IMG/VR virus record: IMGVR_UViG_3300027816_000056
DNA length: 64,000 bases
Source: a virus
Direction: 5' to 3' (one strand)
Positions 20,496-40,958 of this stretch are shown here, in pieces (the first letter of the stretch is position 1; every line of letters begins with the position of its first letter). A program made the position numbers and the translations under genes. A model generated the notes under the pieces. It was not told the origin of the DNA, ran no database searches, and was given only the letters and a program-made list of their open reading frames with translations.

Positions 20496-22958
20496 CTATT
20501 CTGGAAATGCTGCTCCCGTTGGTTGAATATTGAAATCTAGGATAATAAATTCTGCCGTACGAGTTGGCTGAAGGAATATTTGTCCGTAAAGAATGTTTTG
20601 ATCAATAATATCTGGTGTATTATTTGTTGCATCCATTACTACTCGAAACGCATATAAACCTTGCTGTGCACGTACTGATTCTAAATATGGATTAGCAATC
20701 TGAGCAAATCTATCACGAGTCTGTGTTGTATTTTGATCAAATACTAAATAACGAGTTGATGATGCAATAAACTTCTTAACCGCAATCAACAAACGACGCA
20801 CATTTACTCGGTCTAATGCACTTGGTCGAGCCTGTAAGGTCTTTTGACCCCAAATCACTACTCCATCGTTAGGGAAGTTCGCAATAGGATTAATGCGAGC
20901 TTCATACAATGTATTTCGATCTGCTTGTGATAAATTTTGATATGTATCAGATACTGTAGTCAATCCCCCTCTGTTCAAACCAGCTGGTGCATACCATGGA
21001 GCTGAAACTGCATCATTAAATGCTAATGCCCCTGGAACAACAACACTTGGTGGAACCCAAAGTGGAACATTGTTTGCAGGATTTGTAATTCTTACCCATG
21101 GCCAATATGTTGCCGTATAATTGTTATCCAAAGTAGTGATATCATTAACAACCGTAGAAATTGAATCTGTCAATGCATTAGAATCCATTACATAGAATGC
21201 ATCTTGACGATTAGTTACTAAATTTCTTGCAAGAGTTGTTACTGCACTATGTTTGCTTTGCAATATACCTGGAGTTATAAGCATATTGAAATCATAATAA
21301 TCTGTATTAGATAACAATGTAAATGCTTTATTATATGCTTTAGTACCAGTTGCAGTAGCCGTACTACAATCAAATCCAAATACATTAGTATTTGCTATAT
21401 TGGTTCCTGAATATTTTGGTAAGTTTGGACGAGATCCATCAAAACCACCTTGGAATGGAACAATGAATTTTCTTGTAGTGGTAGCTACATTGCTAGTAAA
21501 ATAGTTAGTACCAGTTGTTAAAGCAGTTTCTATAGATCCGGTATACGGTGCAGTTAATGAAGGGAATGCTGCCTGTGTATCTTGACTAACATTTCCTAGA
21601 TAGAAATCTGCATTGCTACCCGTTGTAGAACCTGATGATGGTGTTGGTGCTAAATAATTTAAATTAGTAGTATTTGTAAAATCAAATCCAAAATAGTTAT
21701 TTGCATTGTATATGTTAGATACTACTTGAGAAGTATTATATGCTGCAGCAGTTAAATTCAATGAACCAGAAACTAATGGAATTGGTGAACTAGGTGCACG
21801 GAATCCAAATGGAATCAATGTTTTTTCATTAGTTTTATTTGCAACACCATCTGTTACTTCTACACGAATGTATTTTGAAAGATTTGGATAATCGCCATTA
21901 ACAACAATATTTCCAGCATCAGTTACAGTTTGATAACGATTACCAATTCTACGTGCAATATAATTAGGAGAATCTGGATCTAAGTTACAATTTAAATATG
22001 TCTCAACAATATCAGGTGTTTGATCTGTATCTTGTGATGCATATGGTGAATTTGGAATATTTGCAGTATTAACTCGTCGTACTTCTACTGTAAATGTACC
22101 ATATCCATTTGGATCTGCAACTTCTGATGCAGTTCTTACATCTCGAATACCAACTTTAACTTCATGACTCACAGAAGTACCATGTGATAATGTATGAAAC
22201 TTAAATAAATTTTTAGTAACCGTACCAATTTTTTGTGAAGTAATCCACGGGGTTGCTGCAGTTGAATAATCAGTTAAGAAATAATAGTTATTCAATATTC
22301 CTAATTCAATAGTAACATCTCCTAAATTATTAAAGAGACTTGTAGCGCTAGAATTTTCATATTGAACATACACAGGATAATCTAAAGATTTTGGAGAATT
22401 ACCAAATATTTTAGTTACGTAGTTATTTTTAGTGGAATCAATTGATGCTGATATGCTAGAACCATTTCCAGATAAAAATGCACTGAATCCAGGTACCGTA
22501 GTAGTTCCGAATGATCCTGACAACGTTAATACAAAACTTCCAGAAGGACCATTTGTTATTGCGGATTGTTCAAATACATTGGTAGTTGAATCTACATATG
22601 ATACTGGTTGAGTTGGATGAAGTACGTGCGTTACTGCTTGTACTGATCCTGATTTTGCAATAACGGCCAATCCGCCGTTTCTTAATCCATATCCATCTTC
22701 ATATAAAAGACGTGTTACGGTAATTACATTTCCATTTCTCAAATATTCTTCAACTGTAAATGGTACATATGAATCTGAGGTATATGAACCAAATATTTGT
22801 TGAAATTCAGAGAAAGATGAAACTTTTGTTGGTATTAGTGCCGGTCCTTTTACAGTTGGACCTACAATTGCAGCACCAATTTGACCGATAGCTTGTGGTA
22901 AAAATGATTGATCTACTTCTCTCGTAAATACCCCGGCTGATACAATTCTTTCTGCCAT
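20496..22958 (-). CDS. Tail sheath protein (gp18-like)
   Basis: SAGVFTREVDQS, GPTVKGP, YWPW, WYAPAGLNRG, INPI, WGQKTL, RVNVRRL, PTRTAEFI. Confidence 0.96.
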   Translation of the reverse strand: MAERIVSAGVFTREVDQSFLPQAIGQIGAAIVGPTVKGPALIPTKVSSFSEFQQIFGSYTSDSYVPFTVEEYLRNGNVITVTRLLYEDGYGLRNGGLAVIAKSGSVQAVTHVLHPTQPVSYVDSTTNVFEQSAITNGPSGSFVLTLSGSFGTTTVPGFSAFLSGNGSSISASIDSTKNNYVTKIFGNSPKSLDYPVYVQYENSSATSLFNNLGDVTIELGILNNYYFLTDYSTAATPWITSQKIGTVTKNLFKFHTLSHGTSVSHEVKVGIRDVRTASEVADPNGYGTFTVEVRRVNTANIPNSPYASQDTDQTPDIVETYLNCNLDPDSPNYIARRIGNRYQTVTDAGNIVVNGDYPNLSKYIRVEVTDGVANKTNEKTLIPFGFRAPSSPIPLVSGSLNLTAAAYNTSQVVSNIYNANNYFGFDFTNTTNLNYLAPTPSSGSTTGSNADFYLGNVSQDTQAAFPSLTAPYTGSIETALTTGTNYFTSNVATTTRKFIVPFQGGFDGSRPNLPKYSGTNIANTNVFGFDCSTATATGTKAYNKAFTLLSNTDYYDFNMLITPGILQSKHSAVTTLARNLVTNRQDAFYVMDSNALTDSISTVVNDITTLDNNYTATYWPWVRITNPANNVPLWVPPSVVVPGALAFNDAVSAPWYAPAGLNRGGLTTVSDTYQNLSQADRNTLYEARINPIANFPNDGVVIWGQKTLQARPSALDRVNVRRLLIAVKKFIASSTRYLVFDQNTTQTRDRFAQIANPYLESVRAQQGLYAFRVVMDATNNTPDIIDQNILYGQIFLQPTRTAEFIILDFNIQPTGAAFPE

Positions 22959-22983
22959 TAAATTACTCCTTTGATTTGTTTAG

Positions 22984-22993
22984 TATAAATATA
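22984..22993 (-). promoter_or_regulatory. TATATTTATA motif upstream of sheath
   Basis: Variant of the recurring motif; SD AAGGAG at 22966-22971. Confidence 0.55.
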
Positions 22994-23010
22994 TAAAACG
23001 ATGTGCTGAC

Positions 23011-26863: not shown

Positions 26864-27586
26864 TCAAAATCCAGAAAATGGATACATTGTTTGTGTTATA
26901 GCTATAACTTTACCAAAATCCGTTCCTGCTGAAGGTGTTGAATTTAATGCATATGATGCTGTTAACGCAAATGAAGCTGTTCCTTGTAGTGAACCGGTAA
27001 ATGAATTTGCTGTAACATTGCCGGTTACTGCTAATGTAGATCCATCAAAAGTTGCATTAGATTCTCCATTCAAAGTTGCTGCAGTTCCAGTTGCTGTTAC
27101 TAAGTAATTATCTGTGTTATTATTTATAGTTACTCCGCCACCCCCTGGTGCCCATGATGCTGATACTGCAAATGAAGCTGTTCCTTGTAGTGATCCCGTA
27201 AAACTGTTTGCTGTTACATTACCAGTAACTGCTAATGTTGAACCATCAAATGTTAGATTAGATTCGCCATTTAACTCTGGTGTTGTACCGGTCGCTGTTA
27301 TTACTCTATTGTTAATGTTACCGGCAGCAAATGTAGTGCCTCCGCCGCCTCCTGGTGCCCATGATGCTGATACTGCAAATGAAGCTGACACTACTGAGTT
27401 TGCACCATATGGCCCATATACTCCAGATGCAGTAACAAATGAAGCAGTTGACGCGGTGGTTACTGATCCTAATAAGTTTTGTGCTGTTGTAGCAAAACTT
27501 GCCGTACCTTGTAATGATCCCGTTGCATCGAGAGATGCTACGGTTAAATTTGTAATACTACCAGAGTCTGTATAAAATATAGGCAT
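26864..27586 (-). CDS. Short tail fibre-like protein with internal duplication
   Basis: Two ~67-69 aa repeats (N.V.TATGT...LNGESN.TFDGSTLAVTGNVTANSFTGSLQGTASFA); late motif at 27591-27600. Confidence 0.65.
   Translation of the reverse strand: MPIFYTDSGSITNLTVASLDATGSLQGTASFATTAQNLLGSVTTASTASFVTASGVYGPYGANSVVSASFAVSASWAPGGGGGTTFAAGNINNRVITATGTTPELNGESNLTFDGSTLAVTGNVTANSFTGSLQGTASFAVSASWAPGGGGVTINNNTDNYLVTATGTAATLNGESNATFDGSTLAVTGNVTANSFTGSLQGTASFALTASYALNSTPSAGTDFGKVIAITQTMYPFSGF
26967..27387. repeat. Tandem ~200 bp duplication in the fibre gene
   Basis: 37 nt identical at 27144-27180 and 27351-27387; 26 nt identical at 26967-26992 and 27168-27193. Confidence 0.9.
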
Positions 27587-27601: not shown

Positions 27602-30600
27602 TTACATGTTAAATTCACCCGTACGAATTGCTTGCCAAAATACATCGTTAGTAATTGCAACAGAGCTATTTGAATTAATTTTAAATCCAGCAGGGCCGAC
27701 ATCTTGAACGGTCCATGATCTAGCATCTCCTCCTGTTACAGTTACTGTATATGTACCTGGAAATTGTGTTGCAAATGTTACTGTATAAATTAACGGAGTT
27801 CCAGAAAAACTATTTCCTTTTGCAACTCCAGATTTTACAACCATTCCGTTAACATATGAAGCGGTTGCAGCATATGATGCAGAAGTAGCAAAGCTAGCTG
27901 TACCTTGCAATGAACCGGTAATACCAGAAGTTACACTTAAATTACCCAATACATCAACAGTGGTTGTACTAACTCTAAATACATCAGCTCTTGTAGAATC
28001 ATTCGCGCCGGCACCTATAACAAAAAGTGATGTAGTATTGCCATGTTGATTGTATTGTCCAATAACTAGTTGTCCTGACCCAGATGCAATTGTTCCAAGT
28101 CCTTCCGCATGCGAGTAATCTCCTAGCGCAATTGTACTTTGACCTTCAGCATGAGAATATAATCCAATGGTGCGTGTTGAAAATCCTTCGGCGTGAGATG
28201 CCTCTCCAATTGTAGTAGTGTCACGTCCTTCGGCGTGTGAATACGTACCAAGTGCACGAGTGTTAAGCCCTTCAGCATGAGAATAGTTTCCAGCTGCACA
28301 TGAACCCCTACCTTCAGCATGCGATGATAATCCTATAGAAAATACACTATTACCCTCAGCGTGTGAATATTGTCCTAATGCAGTTGAATTTGTACCTTCT
28401 GCATGAGCGTGTTGAGCAGCATATGGTTGGTCTCCAATCCAACTAACCGGAGCATTATCTAGATCGCCAACAACTGCTGTGGTAGTTGTTATGGAAGGAT
28501 CTTGTAGAAAAATTAACGTTGAAGCACCATCAAACGATGCAGAATCTATAACAACAGCTGTTGTACCATATGAATAATCATATAATGTATCATCTAGATA
28601 CAAATATGATCCATTTGCAAAATAAAATGCAATGTCTCCATATGATGCAGATAATGATGCCGTGCCTGCAGTTACCGATGTTGCTAAATATCCATTTGTT
28701 CCACCAGTCGATGTAACACTACCTTCAGTGTGTGAATAATTACCAACCGCTGTTGTAATATATCCTTCTGCATGTGAATATAAACCAGATGCTACCGTAG
28801 TTTCGCCATGTTGCAAACTTTGACTTGTATGTATGAACGAAAAACTTGCAGTTGCTGCAAATGAACCTGCTTTATTATATTGAATCTCATTGTTGTTTCC
28901 TGCTGCTGCTACGTATGAAGCTGTTGTAGAATTTGTTGCGTTTACAGCCCAACTTGCCGTACCTTGTAATGATCCAGTAAATGTTGATGAAATGGAAGTA
29001 GCGTTAGTTACGTTATATCCACCCATATTCAAATTACCAGACATTGCACGTGTACCATTGACAAGCAAATACTGCTGATGGTCATCAGCATTTAATCCTA
29101 ACAAGTTTCCATGCACAGATGATGCATTTACACCCGCTGCTCGGAATCCAATAATTGGACGTATATCTTGTATTTGTGTAATGTTTGCTGAACCAGATTG
29201 TACGTATATAGAAGCTAATGCAACTACGCCATCAGAAAAATAAGTTGGTGGTGCCGGTAGACCGGCATTCTCTGCTTCAACTAGTGTTGCATATTGACTT
29301 GGATTGATTACTAAAAAATATTCCTCATCCGGTCCTCGGCCAACTGTATACAAACTATGCTTAGTGTAGTAGGATGCAGACATTGCAACCAATGCACTAC
29401 CGGAGTTGTATACGTTATTTGGTACTAGTGTTTGCGATGATTTATTCCAACCAAACGCTCCTGATCCTGATTGGTAGTATTGTGTAAATGCAATTGCACT
29501 ACCGCCAGTTGGATCATATTCGTTTTCTCCAAAGTAATACAAACCAGCTGTTACATCAAGTTGACGAGGCGTTATATCTTCCGATACTATACACCCTTGA
29601 GCAAATACCGGACCTAATGCATTTCTATTAAACTTAGATAATGCATTTGACATATGTGCTGCAAAATATGGACTATTGTCTACTAACTCGATTCCTGTAT
29701 CATTTGTTACAACGCGGCCTAATATAATGTTATGCGCACTAGGAGGTTGTATTGCGTTAGCTGTTAGTGTTGCAGTTTCATCAATGAATATGTAGTTATC
29801 GGTATTTGGTGATAAGGTTAGATTGGTATCGGCCCAATCAATTCTTTGAAATACTTCCGTACCCATGTTATGTAAATAACCATATCCAGCTGCTGTCGTA
29901 ATAGTTAAACTTCCGGAAATTGTTATGTTACCTCCAGACATTACCCCCATCGGACTACCTTCGAAAATTAGTGTCGATGCATCTGTATGAGTACCATCTG
30001 CAAATGTTACTGATAATTTTCTTGTAATGTCTAATTCACCATCCGTTTCATCTAGAAATGTCCAAAAGAAGTTTTGACTTGCATTAGTTATTTTACTATG
30101 ATCAGCAGTACCTTGGAATCTGCAAGATGCACTAGGATGTAGAATTTCAAAATCATAATTCACTGAATCGTGGATCATGGATCCTACTATATTGAAGCTT
30201 GATGAGTTTGCTAAGTTTGGAATATATACTGCAGAACCCCAACCTGGCATATCCATTCCTAAACCCTGAAGGTCTGCACCATTTTCAAGTTGAATAGCTA
30301 CCGAAGTTGCATCTCCTTCACCAATTAGACCAGCTGCATAAATATCCATTTCTGCTACACCACCTACAGCATAATTTGCAATTAACCCGGTGGCTCCTAT
30401 CGGAAACTGATAGTAATTTTCTAAACTTGCTAATGCTTGATATCCATTTGATGAACTTACAAAACTACCCGTACTATAAACTCCATTATAATCTAAATAC
30501 TCACCATAAAATTTAGTATCTTGCGTTCTTGATATAACTGTAACACACATATCGCAATCGTAAAAAGAAACTTTATGTGCTTGTGCAAAATCTCCAATAT

Positions 30601-31978
30601 CATCTATATATAAAGCAGAATATCCTGCAGGTGCGTTTGTTAGTGTTAAAAATGATACTTCATTATTAATACCCATCTTAATCAAGTGCTGATTAGATGA
30701 GCTTGGGAATATTTGAGTAGTTTGAATACTACTACCAACAATACTAACGTACGGTTTGCCGGTTAGATCAATTTCTTTTTCTGTGTATCGACCCGGGCCA
30801 ACTTCAATTACATATCGATTAGTATCTGATGAGTCTGTGATATATGCAACAGATGCACTAATGCTAGTAAAGTCAGCTCCTTTTGTTCCTACCGTAATTC
30901 TTCTAGGATCTTGTCCTACTTCATAAAGTGATGAGCTTAGTGATATTTGTGTTTTTAAGAAGTTATCCGTACCTTGTACTTTACCAGTAGATCCAGAGTG
31001 TTCAATTGCAACATCAGTCGTACAGTTTTCAAAGTTAAGTGCAATTGCATCTATGGATGGACCAGATCCTGTCTGAGGTGCCCAAATACCTTTATCCCAA
31101 CGTTGAAAGTTAACACCCGTTAGACGTAGGTTACCTCCATTATATACTTTAAATCCAGTACCTAGAGCTGATCCTGCTGCTCTTGTTAGCAAACATCCAT
31201 TAACAATAAATGCACAATTAGGAGCATCGGATAAAGCAAATATTTGATTATTGTCAGATCCTGCTACACCTCCGTTAGTAGAAGTTACATTACGAAGCTG
31301 CATTCTACCAATACCAGCACTGCCGGTTCTTGTTACATGAAATCCTACGTCGAATGATTTATTGAGTTCGGTAAATCCGCCATATTTGACATTGGAACAC
31401 TGTAATATACAGTTACCATTACTTCCAGTACCAATAACTTTAGCGTTGGTATAGTTAGTACCAAATCTTACATTTTCAACATATGCAATTGCATTTGTTT
31501 GAGGTGTTGTAGGAGATGAATAAATAATAGCAGAAGCTGACGGGGCTGTAGATCCTTGTATTTGCATATCAATGATCATTGATTGATCACTCATTATAAA
31601 AATACTTGCACTAGGATTAGATGCAGATACTACGGTTGAAATTGAACTATCTCCTTTTACGGCAACATAAGAAGGTACAGTTATTGTATCTTCTATATAG
31701 ATACCAGGAAATACTTGCACCGTATACGTATTAGTTGCCGTTGCATCGACTATACTATCAACTGCAGATTTTATTGAAAAGTAATCTGTCTCACTACCCG
31801 GTAAACCTACTGTTACTAGATTATCAACGTACGTTGTTATACCTGTAAGTCCTGATCCATCACCAAAAAATGATCCAGAAAAAGATCCTGTTACTCCGTT
31901 ACTTACGTTAAGTGATCCTGTTACCTCAGAGTTTCCTTCAGAACGGAAACCGTTTTTTATGCGAAATTCATTTGCCAC
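27602..31978 (-). CDS. Long tail fibre/spike with two beta-helix-like domains and YadA-head (SHAEG) repeats
   Basis: Two VTVG..G.D..SI..AV/SV...Y...V.PG.Y.E caps; about 11 HAEG/HTEG 14-aa repeats; GTG start with SD. Confidence 0.75.
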   Translation of the reverse strand: MANEFRIKNGFRSEGNSEVTGSLNVSNGVTGSFSGSFFGDGSGLTGITTYVDNLVTVGLPGSETDYFSIKSAVDSIVDATATNTYTVQVFPGIYIEDTITVPSYVAVKGDSSISTVVSASNPSASIFIMSDQSMIIDMQIQGSTAPSASAIIYSSPTTPQTNAIAYVENVRFGTNYTNAKVIGTGSNGNCILQCSNVKYGGFTELNKSFDVGFHVTRTGSAGIGRMQLRNVTSTNGGVAGSDNNQIFALSDAPNCAFIVNGCLLTRAAGSALGTGFKVYNGGNLRLTGVNFQRWDKGIWAPQTGSGPSIDAIALNFENCTTDVAIEHSGSTGKVQGTDNFLKTQISLSSSLYEVGQDPRRITVGTKGADFTSISASVAYITDSSDTNRYVIEVGPGRYTEKEIDLTGKPYVSIVGSSIQTTQIFPSSSNQHLIKMGINNEVSFLTLTNAPAGYSALYIDDIGDFAQAHKVSFYDCDMCVTVISRTQDTKFYGEYLDYNGVYSTGSFVSSSNGYQALASLENYYQFPIGATGLIANYAVGGVAEMDIYAAGLIGEGDATSVAIQLENGADLQGLGMDMPGWGSAVYIPNLANSSSFNIVGSMIHDSVNYDFEILHPSASCRFQGTADHSKITNASQNFFWTFLDETDGELDITRKLSVTFADGTHTDASTLIFEGSPMGVMSGGNITISGSLTITTAAGYGYLHNMGTEVFQRIDWADTNLTLSPNTDNYIFIDETATLTANAIQPPSAHNIILGRVVTNDTGIELVDNSPYFAAHMSNALSKFNRNALGPVFAQGCIVSEDITPRQLDVTAGLYYFGENEYDPTGGSAIAFTQYYQSGSGAFGWNKSSQTLVPNNVYNSGSALVAMSASYYTKHSLYTVGRGPDEEYFLVINPSQYATLVEAENAGLPAPPTYFSDGVVALASIYVQSGSANITQIQDIRPIIGFRAAGVNASSVHGNLLGLNADDHQQYLLVNGTRAMSGNLNMGGYNVTNATSISSTFTGSLQGTASWAVNATNSTTASYVAAAGNNNEIQYNKAGSFAATASFSFIHTSQSLQHGETTVASGLYSHAEGYITTAVGNYSHTEGSVTSTGGTNGYLATSVTAGTASLSASYGDIAFYFANGSYLYLDDTLYDYSYGTTAVVIDSASFDGASTLIFLQDPSITTTTAVVGDLDNAPVSWIGDQPYAAQHAHAEGTNSTALGQYSHAEGNSVFSIGLSSHAEGRGSCAAGNYSHAEGLNTRALGTYSHAEGRDTTTIGEASHAEGFSTRTIGLYSHAEGQSTIALGDYSHAEGLGTIASGSGQLVIGQYNQHGNTTSLFVIGAGANDSTRADVFRVSTTTVDVLGNLSVTSGITGSLQGTASFATSASYAATASYVNGMVVKSGVAKGNSFSGTPLIYTVTFATQFPGTYTVTVTGGDARSWTVQDVGPAGFKINSNSSVAITNDVFWQAIRTGEFNM

Positions 31979-32019: not shown

Positions 32020-35000
32020 TTAGAAACTTCTTATTATAGTTTTAATTGTCCATCCGGATGTTGCAGCAGACGATGTTAATGCCATATCTCCCCCAATTAC
32101 AAATACACCTAATGCTAAATCTGTAGTTGTTCCAAAATCCGTAGTTGTAGTTTCTGTAAAGTTTACATGTGATCCAGACCATATAGATGTTATTTGTCCC
32201 GCACGTGCATTACTTCCTGATCTAGCAGAGTACTCAAACCAAGCTCCATCATATGATGCCGTTGGCAGTGCGTATATTGTTGTAGCTCCGGCATTTGTAG
32301 TTACCCATACTGCTGTGCTTAAGAAGTTATTTATTATTAGTGATCCGGTAATCTGTGCCGATCCTGTGTATGGGAATGTTGTATCTGGTGCATAAGATGC
32401 ACTTAGTGCTTGAGATGCATATGAAGAGCTTAAAGTATATGATGCTGTAGTAGCATTAGTTGCCCAAGATGCTGTACCATATAATGAACCAGTAATGGAA
32501 GATGCATTAACAAACGATGCTGTTAAACTCTGCGCATTTATACCTTCACTAGCATTTAGAGATCCTGATAAGGAATAACTACCACTTAATGTTTTTGTAT
32601 TAAACCAATAGGTGCTATCATACATTAATAGATCACCGTATGTAGGAGTAGTTAGAGTTACATCCGTTAGTGCATCTAAAGTTGAATTACCTACACCCCC
32701 ACCAATAATGTTACCAGAACTTCTAAATAATCCAGCTTCCCTAAATTCGTAGGATGCAGGTACTGTAAAATCAGCATTTTTCCTCAACAACATGACTCCT
32801 ATAAAGAGAGCGCTTGCTGCCGTATTTGGTGCTTCTGAGAACGCTTCTGTTGGTATAGCGGCTAGTGCATCTTCTTTATTTGCATACTCATCATTTCCGT
32901 AGTAAACAAACAACGCCTTTGTTGCACTATTAGGAAAATAAAACACTCTTTGTATAGTCCAATGGTTTGTAGATACTGTTGTTAAGGTTCCGTTTAGTGA
33001 ATATTTTGAAGGATCGATTACTGGATATCCTACTCCTCCATTAGTATCATAAACCCAACTAGATCCTGATTGGTAGTATCGGAAAATCTTAGAAGTAGTA
33101 ATACCAGTTGCTTCTGTAATATAGCTTGGAGCATTTGGATCTACTGTATAGTTTCGGCCGTCAACAAACGATACACCGCCGGCTAAAAATAAACTTCCGG
33201 TTGATGATCCACTTGGTGATAACGTATATCCAGATATTTTTAACGGACCAAATGCTTTAATAAAATCAAAAGATCTTTGTTTCCATCCATATGCTACACC
33301 TGGGAAAGTTTGAACTCCATTTATTGAAGAACGATTTTGGTGCAGAACAATACCAATTGGAATAAAATTGTTATAATCACCATCAATATATGGTGTTCCT
33401 TGTGCTTTAATTACTGCAGTACCTGCTGATGAAGATATAGCTACAAATTGTTGATCAAATGATCCACTTAAAGCACTAATACTACTAGTTAAATTTTCCC
33501 AGTTTAAATACTCTACTACTGGGTATGGGTCATTGTTAAATGAACTATTAAGATTTACTACAATACCACTACCACTTGATATTTGATATGTAGTAGAGTT
33601 TACTTGTGATATTATACCACCATGTAATAAACCTGTATATAGATTACCTTCTAACCAACGTAAACGAGTTACATTATTATAACCTGCCCCATTTTGGCTA
33701 AAGTATAAATCTTGGGTTGATCCAGAGACGTAAATATAGGAAGCTGATATATTAGAGTTTATATTAGAATTAACTGGATCAAAACGTAAATATCCATTTA
33801 AGTCTACATTACCAACAATGGATACAGATGCCGATCCAGCAGCAGGTGGATATTGTCCTTGTACTTGCAAACTACCAGATAAGATTGTATTACCTATTAA
33901 CGTGTTAGATCCGGTAGTAAGTAAACTTCCAGTTACAATTTGAGTACCAACAAAAGTATTAGTACCAGTAAATGTATTTGAACCAGTTGCATTTATTGAC
34001 CCGGTTATTTGTACTTCTTGTCGTAGTGGATTAACATATGATGCAGTTAGTGCATAGGATGATGTAGTTGCATTAAATGCATAACTAGCAGATATAGCAT
34101 ATGATGCCGTTGTTGCGTATGATGATGTTATTGCATATGATGAACTTAGTGCCGATCTAGCATAACTAGCAGTACCGGCAACTGAACCAGAAAACCATGC
34201 GGATGCTGTAGAATTCCAATTTAATACGTGATCTAAACCATTACTAGCTACTAATTCTCGATTTTCCCAATCAATACTAACACGATTACCTGTTGAAATT
34301 AATTCTTTTGTATTCCAATCTGCGGAAATACTAATTCCATCAGTATCTATTAACTGTCTACTAGTCCAATTTAAACTATCGGTATTTGTTCCAGAATAAG
34401 GATTTTTTAAAATACCAGAGTTCCAATCGATTGATACTAATGAATACACACTAATTAACTGTCTATTAGTCCAATCGATTGACACAGCTGGTGCACCACC
34501 GCCTATTCCGAATAAATCATATGTTTTACCTTCAAACCAATCTAAACTTTTAACATAAGGTGTACCCGAACCAGGATCAGGAGTTCTCCAAAGTTGATTA
34601 AATGCCCAATCTACAATAAGGTATGAAGAACCGGCATAATCAGGTATACTTAAACCATGTCCGATCCAATCAACTGTAGCTATATCTGCTACCCCATCAT
34701 TATATAATAGCTGTCTATTAGCCCAGTCAACTGATTTAGTATTGTTTTGATCTTTTAATATTTTAGTATTTGTATCTAATATTGTATATGTACCATCATT
34801 AACAAACAAAGATCCGGTAAATTGATGTGTATCATCTGAGGTATTACCAAATTTAGTTGAACCGGATGTAAATATTACGGATGATGTTTCATATGTAGTA
34901 TATAATAAAGAAACTGATGCTGTTCCGTTAACCGTAATATTACCATTAATGGTTTGATTTCCTATGAACGTGTTTGAACCTGTTGTTGCAAATGATCCAG

Positions 35001-35199
35001 ATTTTGCTACAAATATAGGATCAGTCTCAACAAAATAAGATGATGTTGCTGCCGTTGTAGCAAAACTAGAACTCAATGCTTGAGTTGCATATGATGCGGT
35101 AACAGCAATTTGTGCGTAAGAGGCAGTTAGGGCAAAACTAGAAGAAATATTATATAAAGAACCTGTTTGTAATTGACCTGGTTTAAACTGTCTTGCCAT
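32020..35199 (-). CDS. Large tail fibre/structural protein
   Basis: Ser/Thr-rich, S.DW..R.L repeats, ASYA repeats; start placed at 35199 (TAATG overlap with upstream stop). Confidence 0.65.
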   Translation of the reverse strand: MARQFKPGQLQTGSLYNISSSFALTASYAQIAVTASYATQALSSSFATTAATSSYFVETDPIFVAKSGSFATTGSNTFIGNQTINGNITVNGTASVSLLYTTYETSSVIFTSGSTKFGNTSDDTHQFTGSLFVNDGTYTILDTNTKILKDQNNTKSVDWANRQLLYNDGVADIATVDWIGHGLSIPDYAGSSYLIVDWAFNQLWRTPDPGSGTPYVKSLDWFEGKTYDLFGIGGGAPAVSIDWTNRQLISVYSLVSIDWNSGILKNPYSGTNTDSLNWTSRQLIDTDGISISADWNTKELISTGNRVSIDWENRELVASNGLDHVLNWNSTASAWFSGSVAGTASYARSALSSSYAITSSYATTASYAISASYAFNATTSSYALTASYVNPLRQEVQITGSINATGSNTFTGTNTFVGTQIVTGSLLTTGSNTLIGNTILSGSLQVQGQYPPAAGSASVSIVGNVDLNGYLRFDPVNSNINSNISASYIYVSGSTQDLYFSQNGAGYNNVTRLRWLEGNLYTGLLHGGIISQVNSTTYQISSGSGIVVNLNSSFNNDPYPVVEYLNWENLTSSISALSGSFDQQFVAISSSAGTAVIKAQGTPYIDGDYNNFIPIGIVLHQNRSSINGVQTFPGVAYGWKQRSFDFIKAFGPLKISGYTLSPSGSSTGSLFLAGGVSFVDGRNYTVDPNAPSYITEATGITTSKIFRYYQSGSSWVYDTNGGVGYPVIDPSKYSLNGTLTTVSTNHWTIQRVFYFPNSATKALFVYYGNDEYANKEDALAAIPTEAFSEAPNTAASALFIGVMLLRKNADFTVPASYEFREAGLFRSSGNIIGGGVGNSTLDALTDVTLTTPTYGDLLMYDSTYWFNTKTLSGSYSLSGSLNASEGINAQSLTASFVNASSITGSLYGTASWATNATTASYTLSSSYASQALSASYAPDTTFPYTGSAQITGSLIINNFLSTAVWVTTNAGATTIYALPTASYDGAWFEYSARSGSNARAGQITSIWSGSHVNFTETTTTDFGTTTDLALGVFVIGGDMALTSSAATSGWTIKTIIRSF

Positions 35200-36425
35200 T
35201 ATGCCCACCTTCCATTTATAATTATCGTATCAGTGGAATCTATGGTATATCCTAGTATTGCTGTATCAAATACAATAGTTTGTGGGGCTGTCAATGTAGG
35301 TGTCCAGGTATATGCAACTTTGTCAATATACTGTCCATTAATGTATATGTTAAATTCATTTTTAGATGCTGCGGCAGTTGTTACTGGATTTAATCCTGCA
35401 CTTGCTGTTACAGTAACCGTAGTTGCGTTTAAATATGTGGCAATTTTATCCGATAAATTGGTAAGATACATCATTGTAGCTGCATCAATTGTTCCTGTAC
35501 CACCCCCGGCTGTTGAAACTTGTAGTGTAGCTCCACTAAATATTTGCTGAGATACTTGAAGCAATGCTACTGGTACGGTTGTCGTACTAAATATATCTCC
35601 ATCTAAATCTATAACCGTATCAAAGCTTATTTTTTTAATAGAATACATCTTTTTCAGGGTTGAAATACGGGCTTCTTGTTCTGACAGCAATGTACCTTTA
35701 ACTGTCAATGGAATTGTGGCTCGTACTAAACGATCTTCTCCAACCGTATTTACTGTTTCAAATGATGCTTGTCCAATAGCCGTTTCAAAACGATTTCCTT
35801 CATTTCCCCACAAAAATCTACCATATGGAAGTATTTGATCATACAATTCATTCATCTGTGTAGTAAAATCGCACCACAACATCATTTCATATTCAATATC
35901 TACGTATTTAGGAATATCAATAACATATATAGTTTCTGAAGGTTGTGGTTGTGTAGTTGGCAACGGAAATAATTCGTCTTCATATCGATTTCTAGAATTG
36001 TATTTATTTTTATATACATGTTGATTTCCAGATATCTGTCGATTAACATCTAATGTACGTGTACTATCTCGTTCCGTTGAACTATTTCGTTTCAACATGA
36101 TAAGTGGTGATTGAAGCATTCCTTTTTCATCACGTAAATATCCTAAACGACGTACATTATCCCATTTTTCTCCATTTGCAAAAATTACAGGAACTGTTAT
36201 CAATTGTTGATTAGATGTAATTTGAGGACGTATTTCATTGTCAATATACCATTTAATAGCAAAATCGATGTCATAAAGTGTACGTTTTGCGGATCGTATT
36301 ACGTCATCATCTCTTCTAGTTTGATATGCACGATTCAACAAAAGATCGTTACTTAATCCTTCTGTAGCAGCGGGATTCGGTTTATTAGTTTTACGATCTA
36401 TATTTTCTCTGTTAAATCTAGGCAT
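35199..36425 (-). CDS. Tail terminator/sheath stabiliser (gp15-like) with C-terminal extension
   Basis: Follows neck genes; DIDFAI, VPVIFANGEKW, P.YVDIEYE. Confidence 0.55.
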   Translation of the reverse strand: MPRFNRENIDRKTNKPNPAATEGLSNDLLLNRAYQTRRDDDVIRSAKRTLYDIDFAIKWYIDNEIRPQITSNQQLITVPVIFANGEKWDNVRRLGYLRDEKGMLQSPLIMLKRNSSTERDSTRTLDVNRQISGNQHVYKNKYNSRNRYEDELFPLPTTQPQPSETIYVIDIPKYVDIEYEMMLWCDFTTQMNELYDQILPYGRFLWGNEGNRFETAIGQASFETVNTVGEDRLVRATIPLTVKGTLLSEQEARISTLKKMYSIKKISFDTVIDLDGDIFSTTTVPVALLQVSQQIFSGATLQVSTAGGGTGTIDAATMMYLTNLSDKIATYLNATTVTVTASAGLNPVTTAAASKNEFNIYINGQYIDKVAYTWTPTLTAPQTIVFDTAILGYTIDSTDTIIINGRWA

Positions 36426-36955: not shown

Positions 36956-38200
36956 CTATCCAACATAAATTTTTAACGGAACCTTGCCGAGAATTTCGGT
37001 CATTTGAGTTGCTTCAGAATTTTGACGTGTTAACATTTGTTCTTTTGTCAATTTTTCCAAAAATTCTCTTAACTGTGTTATTAATGCTTCTTTTTCTGTT
37101 TGTCCTTGTGATACTAGATCCGATCCATTAAGTGTTACTTCTGAATTAGGAATTGGAATTGATGAATATTTACCACGTACATAACCTAACATTTCCTTTA
37201 CAGTTGCAACACCGTATTTAAATATCCAGGAACGCCCCATATCATTAATTGTACTGTATTTATGATTTGTATATGGTATATTAGATGCGTCACTTACAAC
37301 CCCCGTTAAAAGTGCTGTATTGCCGAATAAAATAGCCTGTTTGCTTTTTTCTTCTTCAAACAAATATTCAATCCATACTTTGCTATAAAATATTGATGAT
37401 GCCGATGATCCTGTACCTGATGTTGGAATTGGCCAAAATTTAATATCATCACCATGTATTTCAAATGAGTAATGTGACTTACGAACCTGATCATTAAATT
37501 CAATAGCTTGCAATCTCATTAAATCTGCATGAATCGGCATCATCATGAAACTAATAGAAGGAGAAAATCCTCCAAAATTAAATGCGTCTAGAAGTTGTTG
37601 AGATCCTAATCCAGTACCAACAAATGGATCGAAATATCTTACAATCGCTGGTGGTGGTGTATGCATTACTCTGCGAATTTCTATAGAACTTGTATTAGAT
37701 AATGAAATACCATCTTCAGCTAATGATGCAGATACTGCATTTCGAATGCTATACGTTTGTTGTCCGGGTGTTACGTTAATTGCAGCTTTACGCCATCTTA
37801 CATCACCTCCCGAATCAGCTTCAGTACCATATGCTTTAGATAGTTTAGTTATATATCCTAAAGACTGTCCAATATTTGTGCCAGTAAATGATCCATTATT
37901 TGCAGTTAAATAACTAGAACCAGTTTGAACTCCTAATGTATTAATTAAATTATTTACAATGTTAACTTGATTAATTTGATTAGAATATTCTAAAACTGCA
38001 GCTTCAAATGCCGTATAAAAATTTATATCTAAAAGTTCTACATCCATGATAGGATATCCAACATGTTGTGCTGCAAACTTTGCAAATCGATCTGCATGTT
38101 GTTGAAACATTGGATCTGTATCAAAAAAACCAAAAGGAGTAGAACCTGTTGTAAATGATGAACTTCCTGGCCAAATTGGTTTATTTGCACTATAATCCAC
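36956..38200 (-). CDS. Neck protein (gp13-like)
   Basis: GYPIMDVEL, KEMLGYVRGKY..IPIP..EVTLNG, P..IYVG; late motif at 38218-38227. Confidence 0.8.
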   Translation of the reverse strand: MDYSANKPIWPGSSSFTTGSTPFGFFDTDPMFQQHADRFAKFAAQHVGYPIMDVELLDINFYTAFEAAVLEYSNQINQVNIVNNLINTLGVQTGSSYLTANNGSFTGTNIGQSLGYITKLSKAYGTEADSGGDVRWRKAAINVTPGQQTYSIRNAVSASLAEDGISLSNTSSIEIRRVMHTPPPAIVRYFDPFVGTGLGSQQLLDAFNFGGFSPSISFMMMPIHADLMRLQAIEFNDQVRKSHYSFEIHGDDIKFWPIPTSGTGSSASSIFYSKVWIEYLFEEEKSKQAILFGNTALLTGVVSDASNIPYTNHKYSTINDMGRSWIFKYGVATVKEMLGYVRGKYSSIPIPNSEVTLNGSDLVSQGQTEKEALITQLREFLEKLTKEQMLTRQNSEATQMTEILGKVPLKIYVG

Positions 38201-38225: not shown

Positions 38226-38891
38226 TCAATATTTTTCATTTAGAAGGTTTAAAATTTCTTCTAAAGCTTCATGTCTATGATTATCTGTTAAAATAATTTC
38301 ATTAACCCATTTAGATGGTTTTAATTTAGGTACTTCGTGAACTGCTGAATCATTACCGAATTTCAAATCAATTTGATATCTGTCTCCAGTTAATATCATT
38401 ATACTATCTTTACCTAATCTGGATAAAACCATTTGTAATTGTTGTTTAGTTAAATTTTGAAATTCATCCACAATACAAATTGCATTATCAAATGTTCGTC
38501 CTCGAAAATGTGCTAATGACACTAATTCAATATTTTCTTCTCGTTCCATTTTATCTAGAAGTTCTGGTTTATTGTACACTTTACGCATATTGCTTCGAAG
38601 CGGAACTAACCATGGATCCATTTTTTCTGCTAATGAACCAGGTAAAAATCCGTTATCTTCATTAGACACTGTAGGACGAGTTATTATAATTTTATTTATT
38701 CTGCGTTTAAAAAACATATCCAATGCAATTTGAACTGCTAACAATGTTTTACCAGAACCAGCTTTTCCTAATATAAAATTAAATGGAGTATGCAATATTA
38801 ATTCTTTTGCTCGTTTTTGTTCTTCTGATAATGTTATTGAATATTTAATATCAGTTTTTGGTGGAGTTTTCTCCTTGTTCGTTGTTGCCAT
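38226..38891 (-). CDS. phoH: PhoH-family ATPase
   Basis: GKAGSGKT, ITRP, GFLPG...EK, RGRTF, VDEFQN, SRLG, GD..QIDL. Confidence 0.95.
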   Translation of the reverse strand: MATTNKEKTPPKTDIKYSITLSEEQKRAKELILHTPFNFILGKAGSGKTLLAVQIALDMFFKRRINKIIITRPTVSNEDNGFLPGSLAEKMDPWLVPLRSNMRKVYNKPELLDKMEREENIELVSLAHFRGRTFDNAICIVDEFQNLTKQQLQMVLSRLGKDSIMILTGDRYQIDLKFGNDSAVHEVPKLKPSKWVNEIILTDNHRHEALEEILNLLNEKY

Positions 38892-39186: not shown

Positions 39187-39217
39187 ATTAGTTCTTTTAA
39201 TATAAATATCATACAGT

Positions 39218-39245
39218 AAAAAAGGGATGACCGAAGCCACCCCTC
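39218..39245 (-). terminator. Intrinsic terminator after major capsid gene
   Basis: AGGGGTGGC-TTCG-GTCATCCCT-TTTTT (UUCG tetraloop). Confidence 0.9.
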
Positions 39246-39293
39246 TTTCTTAATCATTCTTTAATTCTTTAAGTCAATTTATTCAATTAACTA

Positions 39294-40958
39294 TTAAAGA
39301 GTGTTTAATCCGTGTACGTATACTTTACCGTAGAATTCTGGACGAACTACTTTCTTCGCGTAACGTGTCATAACACCTTTACGTGGAGTAAAGTTAACTG
39401 GATCATATACAAGCGGAGTCATAATCAATGGAATATATGGAGAGAATACAGCACCTGTTTCAAGGAATTGCGAACCTCTGAAGCCCATTAAGATTACATT
39501 TTCTAACATGTATGGATTTTTATAAACCGTGTAGCGATTATTAATTGAACCAATTTTTTGTACACCTGCTGCAAATTCCATCTTTGTTCCATCAGTATCA
39601 GCAGCAAATCCAGGAATTGATTCAAGGATAGTTGCAACCGCAGGAGATGTTACTAGGAAGTTAGCACCACCACGCAATGTTTTTTGGTGAATCTTATTTG
39701 ATACTTTTTGCAGTTTAGTACCGAGAGTTTGGAACCAACCACCTTGTGTATTGTAATATCCATCACCAACCGCGGTTGCAGCGCCAGCACCTGATTGTGT
39801 AAATCCAGATCCGTTCCAGAAATTATTATTTAATGCTGACCAATACTCAGTTGTCGGAGCTGCGGCAATCAACATATCGAGAATTTCGAGATCAATTTCC
39901 ATTGATACATACTCAGAAAGCATTGAAGTCAATTCAGCTTCAGCATCAATTGAGTGGTACGCATTAAGATCTTGAGCAAATTCAGGAGTCCATACTGCTT
40001 TCAACTTACGAGTCTTAGCAACGATTGGCTCTGATTGCATTTCAAGATTGATTTCCGGAATATCAATATCTGTACCAACATTAATACCAGATTGACCGGA
40101 TCCTTTGAAAGGATTTTTATCTTCAAAATCTCCTCTAGTAATGTCAGTAGGTTGAATACTATAATTGATCTTTGGATTTGCAGATGCACTAACTAATGTA
40201 GCTAATGAAGAAGATTGTGCAGTAGTTACGATAAACGATGCAGTATAGTTACTATCAATTTTAGAAAATGCCTGTACAGGAATCAATTCAGTGTTTCCAG
40301 AACCTGATAATAATGTAAATGAACGAACTGCATATAAATCAGCATTAGTAGGAATAGGCATTGTAACTAAAGCGTATTGACTTGGCAAGAATGCACTATC
40401 AAAATTAAGAGATGCTGATGTAGCAGCTCCAATTGTAAATGATGCAAAACCTACAGATCCAGTTACGTTATTAATTGAATAACCAAAACGACCTGCACCA
40501 TAAAGACCGCCAGCTGCATCAGAACCGGTAGTAGTAACACCAAACATGGAATCTAATGCATTAGGATTACCAAATGGATCACCTGTACGAAGATTATTAT
40601 CATCATCAAATCCAGGCTGAGCTGTACCATACTTAAAATCTAGATAGAAGATAAGTCCTGATGGCAAGTTCATTGGCTGAACTGAAACGAATTCTTTTGC
40701 AGCAAATTCAGCAAAAATTCTTCTTACCAAAGGAAGTGCAACACCTGCCCATTCTTCTGATCCAGCCGTTGTCCCTGTAGAAGTTGCTTCTTTTACTAAT
40801 TGACGTGCTTGGTTTTCAAGCAATTGGGCCATACCTGCTCTTTCGGTTTCACCCTTAAGACCTTCCAATAGTCCGGTCTTTTCCCATTTTGCTGATAACG
40901 CTTTTGCTTGATTTCTTTGTACAAAATCGTTAGTTTGCAATAAATTTGAAATACTCAT
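39294..40958 (-). CDS. Major capsid protein (gp23-like)
   Basis: LLENQ, LVRR, VQPMNLPSGLIF, AKTRKLKA.W..E.AQDL.A.H.IDAE.EL, PYIPL, TRYA. Confidence 0.97.
   Translation of the reverse strand: MSISNLLQTNDFVQRNQAKALSAKWEKTGLLEGLKGETERAGMAQLLENQARQLVKEATSTGTTAGSEEWAGVALPLVRRIFAEFAAKEFVSVQPMNLPSGLIFYLDFKYGTAQPGFDDDNNLRTGDPFGNPNALDSMFGVTTTGSDAAGGLYGAGRFGYSINNVTGSVGFASFTIGAATSASLNFDSAFLPSQYALVTMPIPTNADLYAVRSFTLLSGSGNTELIPVQAFSKIDSNYTASFIVTTAQSSSLATLVSASANPKINYSIQPTDITRGDFEDKNPFKGSGQSGINVGTDIDIPEINLEMQSEPIVAKTRKLKAVWTPEFAQDLNAYHSIDAEAELTSMLSEYVSMEIDLEILDMLIAAAPTTEYWSALNNNFWNGSGFTQSGAGAATAVGDGYYNTQGGWFQTLGTKLQKVSNKIHQKTLRGGANFLVTSPAVATILESIPGFAADTDGTKMEFAAGVQKIGSINNRYTVYKNPYMLENVILMGFRGSQFLETGAVFSPYIPLIMTPLVYDPVNFTPRKGVMTRYAKKVVRPEFYGKVYVHGLNTL

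What the first reader, a model, noticed from the sequence alone, without database searches (positions are those of the whole stretch)
20496..40958. [ST]-[GAS]-S tripeptide marks predicted surface-exposed virion regions: candidate sequon for a whole-virion glycosylation/modification system
Seen (hand counts): SGS/TGS/SAS/TAS/SSS/TSS occurs 7 times in the major capsid protein, all within residues ~144-260 and none in the conserved core. It occurs 9 times in the sheath, all in residues ~100-480 and none in the conserved C-terminal ~330 aa. There are about 7 in the gp13-like neck, more than 30 in each of the 1458 aa and 1062 aa fibres, and more than 10 in the 898 aa protein (53868-56564). I found none in the portal, tail tube, tape measure or scaffold, and only 1-2 in NrdJ, helicase and Mre11-Rad50. 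The motif recurs in unrelated folds with varied codons, so it is selected at protein level rather than being a DNA repeat. Known: some mycobacteriophages glycosylate capsid and tail proteins on Ser. Inference: a short sequon was installed convergently on outward-facing loops so that one enzyme (encoded outside this window, or by the host) can coat the particle.
Basis: partly seen in the sequence, partly recalled or inferred. Interest (0 to 1): 0.85.

Follow-up and report, generated by a model that had tools for sequence, protein, structure and literature searches.

The report
Ser-rich tripeptide on outer virion proteins
The outward-facing parts of this freshwater T4-like phage's capsid, sheath, neck and fibres carry the tripeptide Ser/Thr-Gly/Ala-Ser three to five times too often, and the phage has an 18-kb sugar-synthesis gene cluster, so the tripeptide may mark sugar-attachment sites, though no sugar has been measured.

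Summary
Every hand count is exact.

- **Enrichment.** It survives local-composition shuffles and a dipeptide (Markov-1) expectation (non-fibre proteins 33 vs 14.1, P=1e-5). In an unbiased scan, SGS is the most enriched of all tripeptides.
- **Refined motif.** It is hydrophobic-[ST]-[GA]-S-hydrophobic. SSS and TSS are not enriched. It is directional (TGS 10 vs SGT 2; TAS 24 vs SAT 1), and its codons vary.
- **Lineage trait.** It is enriched in Mel-JY01, immuto and 73 metagenomic sheath homologs (523 vs 192). Sites sit only in the outer domains and mostly at changing positions.
- **Controls.** T4, a cyanophage, RM378 and LR756508 lack it. LR756508's sheath is homologous over its full length.
- **Gene cluster.** Just beyond the window lies an 18-kb, 21-gene glycan cluster with no membrane segment. 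Immuto, which carries orthologues of the four transferases, has no glycosylated nucleoside in its DNA (PMC10516641).
- **Association.** The motif tracks GT427 and GT2_215, with one independent contrast.

Virion O-glycosylation is therefore plausible (about 0.4) but unproven. A structural loop and fibre-repeat idiom is nearly as likely (about 0.35). First readers of this scan flagged the same motif in related genomes.

The parts
39294..40958 (-). Major capsid protein (gp23 family, 554 aa) with 7 motif sites, all in the insertion region at residues 144-257
   Evidence: Pfam Gp23 E=1.6e-73. 7 sites vs about 2.4 expected, p about 0.008. In 120 relatives the mean is 5.8 vs 2.6; sites 218 and 239 occur in 118/120, the others turn over.
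20496..22958 (-). Tail sheath (820 aa) with 9 motif sites at residues 103-473 and none in the conserved C-terminal core
   Evidence: Pfam Phage_sheath_1 and 1C. AF2 model pLDDT 82; sheath fold Z 27-31 against solved sheaths. 9 vs about 4 expected. 8 of 9 sites lie in loops, turns or strand ends.
36956..38200 (-). gp13-like neck / head-tail adaptor protein (414 aa) with 7 sites
   Evidence: PHROG 211, head-tail adaptor Ad2, E=1.6e-10. 7 vs 1.9-3.1 expected. Sites 13 and 18 are shared with Mel-JY01.
27602..31978 (-).
   Evidence: 24 isolated sites vs 7.9 expected for the whole protein.
32020..35208 (-). 1062-aa fibre with 50 sites (39 by [ST][GA]S), 17 of them in period-6 arrays
26864..27586 (-). 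240-aa fibre-like protein with 14 sites, mostly in repeated TGSLQGTASFA-type modules
   Evidence: No PHROG or Pfam family.
53868..56564 (-). 898-aa protein of no known family with 14 sites; presumed virion protein
   Evidence: 14 vs about 5 expected, p<0.001. No Pfam or PHROG match. No homolog in the immuto, Mel-JY01 or LR756508 regions fetched.
45627..47459 (-). Portal protein: internal control, 0 sites
   Evidence: PHROG 213; 0 sites.
19882..20406 (-). Tail tube: internal control, 0 sites
   Evidence: PHROG 4542; 0 sites.

Best explanation
Hydrophobic-[Ser/Thr]-[Gly/Ala]-Ser-hydrophobic is a preferred acceptor site for O-linked glycosylation of outer virion proteins, probably on the third-position Ser. 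The glycosylation is done in the host cytoplasm by the phage's own soluble enzymes.

**Shown**
- The motif excess is real, directional, at protein level and confined to outer domains.
- It is a trait of one clade of aquatic T4-like phages.
- The phage encodes an 18-kb, 21-gene glycan cluster with no membrane segment. It lies outside the window at L010:3077 to L011:12099.
- The cluster holds GT-B enzymes of 497 and 427 aa and GT2 enzymes of 215 and 400 aa. It also holds a GDP-mannose 4,6-dehydratase, CapE/CapF-like UDP-HexNAc enzymes, a DegT aminotransferase, three methyltransferases, an ATP-grasp enzyme and a PIG-L deacetylase.

**Inferred**
- These enzymes build 6-deoxy, amino and methylated sugars and transfer them stepwise to Ser in exposed loops and along fibre repeats. 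This would coat the sheath, neck, fibres and, in this subclade, the capsid insertion domain.
- GT427 and/or GT2_215 is the protein-directed transferase.
- What the coat is for (shielding, stability or adhesion) is not addressed by any data here.
For: 1. **Specific, directional excess.** Non-fibre proteins: SGS 13 vs 2.4 and TGS 10 vs 2.2, but SGT 2 vs 2.2. Fibres: TAS 24 vs 4.6, but SAT 1 vs 4.5. SGS tops the unbiased scan. The excess holds against the dipeptide expectation.
2. **Numbers kept, positions not.** 73 sheath homologs (29-81% identity) carry 523 sites vs 192 expected. All lie in the two outer-domain regions, spread over 155 alignment columns. Each sheath has 3.1 sites in semi-conserved columns and 4.4 scattered. 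120 capsid relatives average 5.8 vs 2.6 expected.
3. **The fold does not need the motif.** LR756508's sheath is 41% identical over its full length and has 1 site vs 0.97 expected; its capsid protein has 1 vs 0.8. The cyanophage sheath has 1 vs 3.1.
4. **Transferase distribution.** This phage and immuto have GT497, GT427, GT2_215 and GT2_400. Mel-JY01 has the first three. LR756508 has GT497 only. RM378 has a distant GT497 and a weak GT2_215 match. The cyanophage has none of the three it was searched for and did not appear in the GT497 search. Five near-complete GT427-positive IMG/VR genomes have sheath counts of 9/2.6, 8/2.3, 7/2.8, 4/2.1 and 10/2.6.
5. **Soluble cluster.** No protein of the 21 has a membrane-like segment, while the adjacent holin does. 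Among those with a Pfam match, none is a flippase, polymerase, initiating phosphoglycosyltransferase or oligosaccharyltransferase.
6. **DNA is an unlikely acceptor.** Digested immuto DNA gave only dA, dC, dT and fdPreQ1 (PMC10516641).
7. **Site context.** In the confident sheath model, 8 of 9 sites are in loops, turns or strand ends.
8. **Precedents.** Mycobacteriophage virion glycosylation by phage transferases is summarised in PMC12363180. Cytoplasmic, virus-encoded capsid glycosylation in chloroviruses, using viral GMD, is described in PMC5408694. GT497's best solved sequence relative is the chlorovirus transferase B736L (3oy2, E=2e-10).
Against: - No chemical evidence of any modification exists.
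- 33 of 83 fibre sites sit in period-6 arrays [TS]-[GA]-S-[LYFW]-A-x, with a conserved aromatic and Ala that look structural.
- The hydrophobic flanks suggest partly buried strand ends.
- Several sites are conserved in position (capsid 218 and 239 in 118/120; sheath columns with 35-60% occupancy), as structural residues would be.
- Immuto has all four transferases, but its capsid and neck proteins show no excess.
- The association with the transferases rests on essentially one phylogenetically independent contrast (LR756508). That phage's structural proteins are also poorer in Ser and Thr.
- Soluble GT-B enzymes can act on host lipid-linked sugars at the membrane, so a host-surface target is not excluded.
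- Solvent exposure of the Ser side chains could not be computed.
Confidence: 0.4

Rival explanations
1. The motif is a structural idiom and is not modified. [ST]-[GA]-S makes small polar turns and strand ends in the beta-rich outer domains, and it forms the outward face of a period-6 repeat in the trimeric fibres. The clade inherited this way of building loops. The glycan cluster serves another target, such as host envelope sugars made through host lipid carriers, or a soluble metabolite.
For: - The hexad consensus [TS]-[GA]-S-[LYFW]-A-x covers 33 of 83 fibre sites.
- Residues -1 and +3 are hydrophobic 2-3 times more often than background.
- In the sheath model the sites sit at a hairpin turn (103), before or after strands (139, 276) or inside a strand (170).
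- Some sites are conserved across 38-60% identity.
- Immuto's capsid protein shows no excess although the transferases are present.
Against: - A full-length homologous sheath (LR756508) and the T4, RM378 and cyanophage homologs do without the motif.
- Most sites are not conserved in position, yet their number is kept.
- The strong preference for Ser over Thr at position 3 and the directionality are not what a generic turn or strand rule predicts.
- The same tripeptide is enriched in unrelated folds.
Confidence: 0.35
2. The motif marks a Ser modification other than glycosylation, such as phosphorylation, glycerol-phosphate or another phospho-linked group, or acylation. The enzyme would be phage- or host-encoded and is not yet recognised.
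For: - Ser is specifically required at position 3.
- The phage encodes cytidylyltransferase-like proteins: L002:5982-6398 (E=5.8e-14), and a weak match in the 830-aa protein at 51352-53844 beside the head genes (E=0.003). The latter's Mel-JY01 homolog is annotated as cytidylyltransferase-like.
Against: - No kinase or transferase of this kind has been linked to virion proteins here.
- The cytidylyltransferase with a significant match sits in the DpdA DNA-modification operon.
- The large glycan cluster offers a simpler source of a modifying group.
Confidence: 0.08
3. The excess is a by-product with no function. Fast-evolving, weakly constrained surface loops drift towards low-complexity Ser/Gly/Ala/Thr sequence, and loop segments are exchanged among relatives by recombination.
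For: - The capsid insertion loops are hypervariable and rich in S, T, A and G among 120 relatives.
- The GS dipeptide is itself 1.7-fold enriched.
Against: - The excess survives shuffling within 10-residue blocks and the dipeptide expectation.
- Reversed forms (SGT, SAT) are at or below expectation.
- Codons vary, so slippage of a DNA repeat is not the source.
- The excess is kept across sheaths of 29-81% identity.
Confidence: 0.1

Closest known systems
Virion O-glycosylation of mycobacteriophages (Che8, Corndog, Myrna) by phage-encoded glycosyltransferases (Freeman et al. 2023, as summarised in PMC12363180)
   Same: A tailed phage encodes its own glycosyltransferases, and its structural proteins would be glycosylated in the host cytoplasm.
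   Different: - Glycosylation there has been measured; here it is only inferred.
- The hosts are Actinobacteria and the phage lineages are unrelated.
- The four transferases here have no significant Che8-, Corndog- or Myrna-type relatives among the phage records searched.
- Here a short tripeptide is scattered through exposed domains and fibres.
- The cluster here is far larger (21 genes).
[quoted passage not shown]
   Same: - The virus encodes the sugar-nucleotide enzymes (GDP-mannose 4,6-dehydratase) and soluble transferases.
- Glycosylation takes place in the cytoplasm, at sites that do not fit the canonical sequon.
- GT497's best solved sequence relative is the chlorovirus GT4 enzyme B736L (3oy2, E=2e-10).
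   Different: - The chlorovirus glycans are N-linked to Asn; a Ser O-linkage is proposed here.
- The host is eukaryotic and the capsid fold differs.
- B736L's own function is unknown.
- The similarity covers only the C-terminal Rossmann domain.
Bacterial autotransporter heptosyltransferases (TibC/AAH) acting on TibA and AIDA-I (PMC4358343)
   Same: A soluble cytoplasmic enzyme hyperglycosylates many sites on a repeat-rich, beta-structured surface protein. This is a model for how the period-6 fibre arrays could be modified.
   Different: - The enzyme family is different, and no TibC-like iron-finger protein was found here.
- The sugar donor is ADP-heptose.
- The substrates are autotransporters, not virions.
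General O-glycosylation of Bacteroidota with the sequon D-(S/T)-(A/I/L/V/M/T) (my own knowledge; Fletcher et al. 2009)
   Same: It operates in the phylum of the likely host: the cultured relative immuto infects Flavobacterium. It also uses a three-residue sequon with a hydroxy amino acid followed by a hydrophobic residue.
   Different: - That sequon is not enriched here (0.76-0.86 fold).
- The system acts in the periplasm through a lipid-linked glycan, whereas virions assemble in the cytoplasm.

Membership tests
Phage-encoded virion O-glycosylation (mycobacteriophage type) | Phage genome encodes glycosyltransferases | tested here: met
   Four transferases lie in one cluster. GT497 and GT427 match PF00534 (GT427 below the curated cut-off); the 215-aa and 400-aa GT2 enzymes match PF00535.
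Phage-encoded virion O-glycosylation (mycobacteriophage type) | Glycans covalently attached to capsid or tail proteins | not testable with these tools
   This needs glycoprotein staining or mass spectrometry of virions.
Phage-encoded virion O-glycosylation (mycobacteriophage type) | Transferases homologous to Che8 gp110 or Corndog gp38 | tested here: inconclusive
   tblastn of GT497 found matches only in immuto, Mel-JY01, LR756508 and RM378. The DpdA-operon GT346 matched only Pseudomonas, Xanthomonas and Acidovorax-type phages. No direct comparison with Che8 or Corndog proteins was made.
Virus-encoded cytoplasmic capsid glycosylation (chlorovirus type) | Viral sugar-nucleotide enzymes and soluble transferases, with no membrane-bound steps | tested here: met
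   GDP-mannose 4,6-dehydratase E=4e-115. CapE/CapF-like pair and epimerases. No membrane-like segment in any of the 21 proteins.
Virus-encoded cytoplasmic capsid glycosylation (chlorovirus type) | N-linked glycans on Asn outside N-x-S/T | not tested
   No Asn-centred motif was searched for beyond N-x-S/T, which is at expectation in the non-fibre proteins (1.00 fold).
Bacteroidota general O-glycosylation | Sequon D-(S/T)-(A/I/L/V/M/T) on the target proteins | tested here: not met
   7 vs 9.2 in the non-fibre proteins and 10 vs 11.7 in the fibres.
DNA hypermodification by phage glycosyltransferases | Glycosylated nucleosides in virion DNA | tested here: not met
   This is evidence from a relative, not from this phage. 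Immuto carries orthologues of the four transferases. Its digested DNA gave only dA, dC, dT and fdPreQ1 (PMC10516641).
T4-type myophage structural module (gp23 capsid, gp18 sheath, gp13 neck) | Homologous capsid, sheath, neck, portal and prohead protease | tested here: met
   Pfam Gp23, Phage_sheath_1 and 1C, and Peptidase_S77; PHROG portal and adaptor families. The sheath model matches T4 gp18 at Z 27.

The most novel reading that the evidence does not exclude
A large clade of uncultured and cultured aquatic T4-like phages (at least 568 IMG/VR loci encode a GT427 relative) coats its sheath, neck, fibres and sometimes its capsid with a phage-made glycan. The glycan is attached to the last Ser of a short sequon, hydrophobic-[ST]-[GA]-S-hydrophobic. 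This would be the first defined O-glycosylation sequon for a phage virion. Its sites turn over in evolution like those of a glycan shield.
Probability: 0.4. Interest if true: 0.8.

Novelty: new variant of a known kind. Interest (0 to 1): 0.62.

Why it matters
- **Scope.** Virion glycosylation is established for a few mycobacteriophages and for giant algal viruses. It is not established for T4-like phages of Bacteroidota or cyanobacteria, and no phage has a defined sequon.
- **What a sequon would allow.** With a tripeptide sequon and a recognisable transferase set, glycosylated virions could be predicted from sequence across abundant freshwater and marine phages.
- **What it would explain.** These phages spend about a tenth of their genome on sugar genes. 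Those genes have usually been read as tools for remodelling the host surface or for modifying DNA.
- **Testable now.** Two relatives with both the motif and the transferases are in culture: Flavobacterium phage immuto and Microcystis phage Mel-JY01.
- **If the structural reading is right.** The result still defines a clade-specific sequence rule for outer virion domains and a period-6 fibre repeat.

Tried and rejected
- **DNA-level repeat.** Rejected: 89 distinct 9-mers for 135 sites, and Ser codon use equals the background.
- **Pure composition effect.** Rejected by block shuffles down to 10 residues and by the dipeptide expectation.
- **Generic property of T4-like structural proteins.** Rejected: T4, cyanophage S-8S53, RM378 and LR756508 show no excess.
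- **Known sequons and motifs from other scan windows.** D[ST][AILVMT] and N-x-S/T (non-fibre proteins) are not enriched; N-x-S/T is 1.32-fold in fibres. [ST]-G-x-T and GSP are also not enriched, and DGY counts (2 and 0) are too few to judge.
- **Solved relatives of the fibres.** None found by sequence.
- **tblastn of the fibres against phage records.** No match for the 240-aa protein, and only a non-repeat domain matched for the 1062-aa fibre. The cause was not established.
- **Literature search for the repeat peptides.** Nothing relevant.
- **AF2 model of the capsid protein.** The shallow alignment gave a poor model (pLDDT 38), so only secondary structure in the insertion region was read, with caution.
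- **Transferase searches in 16 IMG/VR contigs carrying sheath homologs.** All empty, but the contigs are 11-55% complete, so this says nothing.
- **LR756511.** Neither a sheath nor a GT427 match was found; dropped as uninformative.
- **Protein-atlas look-up of the 734-aa cluster protein.** Only weak leads, scores 0.84 and 0.77.
- **Freeman et al. 2023.** The paper is not held in the library.

Full report
**What the window is.** All genes lie on the minus strand. The structural genes are those of a distant T4-like myophage.
- Pfam or PHROG matches identify a gp23-family capsid protein, sheath, tube, portal, large terminase, prohead protease and gp13-like adaptor.
- The nearest cultured relatives by capsid protein are Flavobacterium phage immuto (57% identity) and Microcystis phage Mel-JY01 (54%). 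The uncultured 484-kb phage LR756508 is at 55% and Rhodothermus phage RM378 at 39%.
- At least 120 metagenomic capsid proteins are 82-100% identical, on contigs of up to about 210 kb.
- The genome held for this window is a 97-kb piece. A 156-kb JGI contig is 100% identical to it over 12.8 kb and extends it.

**Checking the observation.** Every hand count is exact.
- Counts are capsid protein 7 (residues 144-257), sheath 9 (103-473), neck 7, fibres 34 and 50, and the 898-aa protein 14.
- Portal, tube, scaffold and the tape-measure-like protein have none.
- Shuffling within blocks of 10-40 residues preserves local composition, and the excess remains. The capsid protein has 7 vs about 2.4 (p about 0.008), the sheath 9 vs about 4 (p about 0.015) and the neck 7 vs 1.9-3.1. 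The 898-aa protein has 14 vs about 5 (p<0.001), and the fibres are 3-4 fold over (p<=2e-4).
- The pattern was chosen after looking at the data, so I scanned all tripeptides. In the four non-fibre proteins SGS ranks first (13 vs 2.4) and TGS is 10 vs 2.3.
- Against a dipeptide (Markov-1) expectation the totals are 33 vs 14.1 (P=1.2e-5) in non-fibre proteins and 83 vs 34.8 in fibres.
- Codons vary: 89 distinct 9-mers for 135 sites, with Ser codon use equal to the background.

**Refining the motif.**
- A middle Ser does not belong. SSS is 3 vs 2.7 and TSS is 1 vs 2.5.
- The motif is directional. In non-fibre proteins TGS is 10 and SGT is 2, both vs 2.2 expected. In fibres TAS is 24 vs 4.6 and SAT is 1 vs 4.5.
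- Ser is preferred to Thr at position 3.
- The residue before the motif is L, V or I about twice as often as background. The residue after it is L, Y or F about three times as often.
- The other 42 proteins of the window have 13 sites vs 21.3 expected. T4 structural proteins show a similar ratio (14 vs 20.5), so this is a baseline and not avoidance.

**Is it generic?** No.
T4 fibres gp34-37 have 14 vs 14.0.
- A cyanomyophage sheath has 1 vs 3.1. RM378 shows no excess.
- In Mel-JY01 the sheath has 11 vs 4.4, the neck homolog 5 vs 1.0, the capsid protein 5 vs 2.2 and a fibre-like protein 24 vs 6.7.
- In immuto the sheath has 10 vs 4.5 and one fibre 17 vs 3.2. Its capsid protein (3 vs 1.9) and neck protein (2 vs 2.2) show no excess.
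- 73 sheath homologs from IMG/VR, at 29-81% identity, carry 523 sites vs 192 expected. They carry only 94 of the reversed form S[GA]T.
- In an alignment of 68 of those sheaths, the sites fall only in the regions matching residues 100-250 and 350-550 of this sheath. The core has almost none.
- The sites occupy 155 alignment columns, of which five have 35-60% occupancy. Each sheath has on average 3.1 sites in semi-conserved columns and 4.4 elsewhere.
- The 120 capsid relatives average 5.8 sites vs 2.6 expected. Sites 218 and 239 occur in 118 of 120, while the others move within hypervariable S/T/A/G-rich loops.

**A natural control.** LR756508 is about as close to this phage as immuto is. Its sheath aligns over its full length at 41% identity yet has 1 site vs 0.97 expected. 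Its capsid protein has 1 vs 0.8, and none of its neighbouring large proteins shows an excess. The fold therefore does not need the motif.

**Structural context.**
- With a diverse 49-sequence alignment, AlphaFold gave a confident sheath model (pLDDT 82, pTM 0.80). It matches solved sheaths at Z 27-31, including T4 gp18 at Z 27.
- Site 103 sits at a hairpin turn, 139 in the turn before a strand and 147 in a loop. Site 170 is inside a strand and 276 directly after one. Sites 397, 442, 446 and 473 are in coil.
- The capsid model was poor (pLDDT 38). In its better-predicted insertion region the sites fall in strand, coil and helix alike.
- In the fibres, 19 of 80 gaps between sites are exactly six residues. 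33 of 83 sites lie in hexads [TS]-[GA]-S-[LYFW]-A-x. The 50 isolated sites are still about three-fold over expectation.

Two earlier notes of this scan pointed to a transferase in a DpdA operon. I confirmed that operon, with a cytidylyltransferase and a GT-B enzyme; the adjacent 118-aa and 420-aa genes, read earlier as QueD-like and DpdA, had no Pfam match. It is most simply a DNA-modification module. More relevant is a second transferase, which is cut off by the end of the held contig.
- Walking along the identical JGI contig revealed an 18-kb run of 21 genes.
- The run holds a SLOG-domain protein, GT497 and GT427 (both GT-B) and a 215-aa GT2.
- It also holds an FkbM-type and two other methyltransferases, a DegT aminotransferase and a GDP-mannose 4,6-dehydratase (E=4e-115).
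- Further genes are an ATP-grasp enzyme, a CapE/CapF-like pair, a PIG-L deacetylase, a 400-aa GT2 and an epimerase. Six proteins have no family.
- The lysis genes follow directly.
- None of the 21 proteins has a membrane-like segment, whereas the adjacent holin has two. Among those with a Pfam match, none is a flippase, polymerase, initiating transferase or oligosaccharyltransferase.
- GT497's best solved sequence relative is the chlorovirus GT4 enzyme B736L (E=2e-10).

**Which acceptor?** Immuto carries orthologues of GT497, GT427, GT2_215 and GT2_400 in the same order behind the same nuclease. Its digested DNA gave only dA, dC, dT and fdPreQ1 (PMC10516641). DNA is therefore an unlikely target. 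Remaining candidates are cytoplasmic proteins, or host lipid-linked sugars reached by peripheral enzymes.

**Co-occurrence.**

| Phage | Motif excess | GT497 | GT427 | GT2_215 | GT2_400 |
|---|---|---|---|---|---|
| This phage | strong | yes | yes | yes | yes |
| Immuto | sheath and fibres | yes | yes | yes | yes |
| Mel-JY01 | sheath, neck, fibre-like protein | yes | yes | yes | no |
| LR756508 | none | yes | no | no | no |
| RM378 | none | distant (27%) | no | weak | no |
| Cyanophage S-8S53 | none | not found | no | no | no |

- The table rests. T4 also shows no excess but was not searched for the transferases.
- Five IMG/VR genomes that encode GT427 and are at least 93% complete all carry this sheath family. 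Their counts are 9/2.6, 8/2.3, 7/2.8, 4/2.1 and 10/2.6.
- The pattern fits a link to GT427 and GT2_215. It amounts to roughly one independent contrast, and LR756508's structural proteins are also poorer in Ser and Thr.

**Verdict.**
- A phage-made glycan attached at this motif is the single most likely reading (about 0.4). It explains four things together: kept numbers with moving positions, the Ser-specific direction, restriction to outer domains, and the soluble glycan cluster.
- It remains unproven. A structural loop and fibre-repeat idiom with an unrelated role for the cluster is nearly as likely (about 0.35).
- Other Ser modifications (0.08) and functionless low-complexity drift (0.10) are less likely.
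- Known sequons, and the motifs this scan reported in other phages, are not enriched here, apart from a slight N-x-S/T excess in the fibres and too few DGY counts to judge.
- First readers flagged the same motif in related genomes. Those notes are not independent evidence.

Noticed in passing
L010:3077-20720 and L011:11191-12099 (same phage, beyond the end of the held contig; about 13 kb before the window start): An 18-kb, 21-gene glycan biosynthesis cluster lies between a PD-(D/E)XK nuclease and the lysis genes. It has four glycosyltransferases, a GDP-mannose 4,6-dehydratase, a CapE/CapF-like pair, an aminotransferase, three methyltransferases, an ATP-grasp enzyme and a PIG-L deacetylase. No protein has a membrane-like segment. 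Six proteins, including one of 734 aa, have no family.
   Followed up: yes
L002:5560-8999 (about 5.5 kb before the window start): Five overlapping genes: an unknown, a cytidylyltransferase, a 118-aa protein, a 346-aa GT-B enzyme and a 420-aa protein. Only the cytidylyltransferase and the GT-B enzyme have Pfam matches. The GT-B enzyme has relatives in Pseudomonas phage PA5oct and Acidovorax phage ACP17. Earlier notes of this scan read this as a DpdA-type DNA hypermodification operon.
   Followed up: partly
window 23331-26364 (-): Three adjacent paralogous proteins of 326-340 aa are 29-31% glycine (Pfam Gly_rich_2 in the first). They sit between the sheath and the fibres. Unlike their neighbours they show no motif excess (1, 0 and 2 sites).
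   Followed up: no
window 27602-31978 (-), residues about 1190-1300: The 1458-aa fibre contains about nine YSHAEG-type repeats that match the YadA head repeat (PF05658, E=1.2e-7).
   Followed up: no
window 51352-53844 (-): An 830-aa protein beside the head genes has a weak N-terminal cytidylyltransferase-like match (E=0.003, below the curated cut-off). Its C-terminal half is 36% identical to a Mel-JY01 protein annotated as cytidylyltransferase-like, found at the same place in that genome.
   Followed up: partly
window 39294-40958 (-), residues about 160-200 and 245-262: The capsid insertion domain has hypervariable, S/T/A/G-rich loops. Among 120 relatives the protein is otherwise 82-100% identical.
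   Followed up: partly
L005 and L006 (phage T4): T4 structural proteins have fewer [ST]GS tripeptides than local-composition shuffles predict (1 vs 7.3). The baseline for ordinary structural proteins may therefore lie below 1.
   Followed up: no
window 38226-38891 (-): A PhoH-like ATPase gene sits between the capsid and neck genes, as it does in immuto and Mel-JY01.
   Followed up: no
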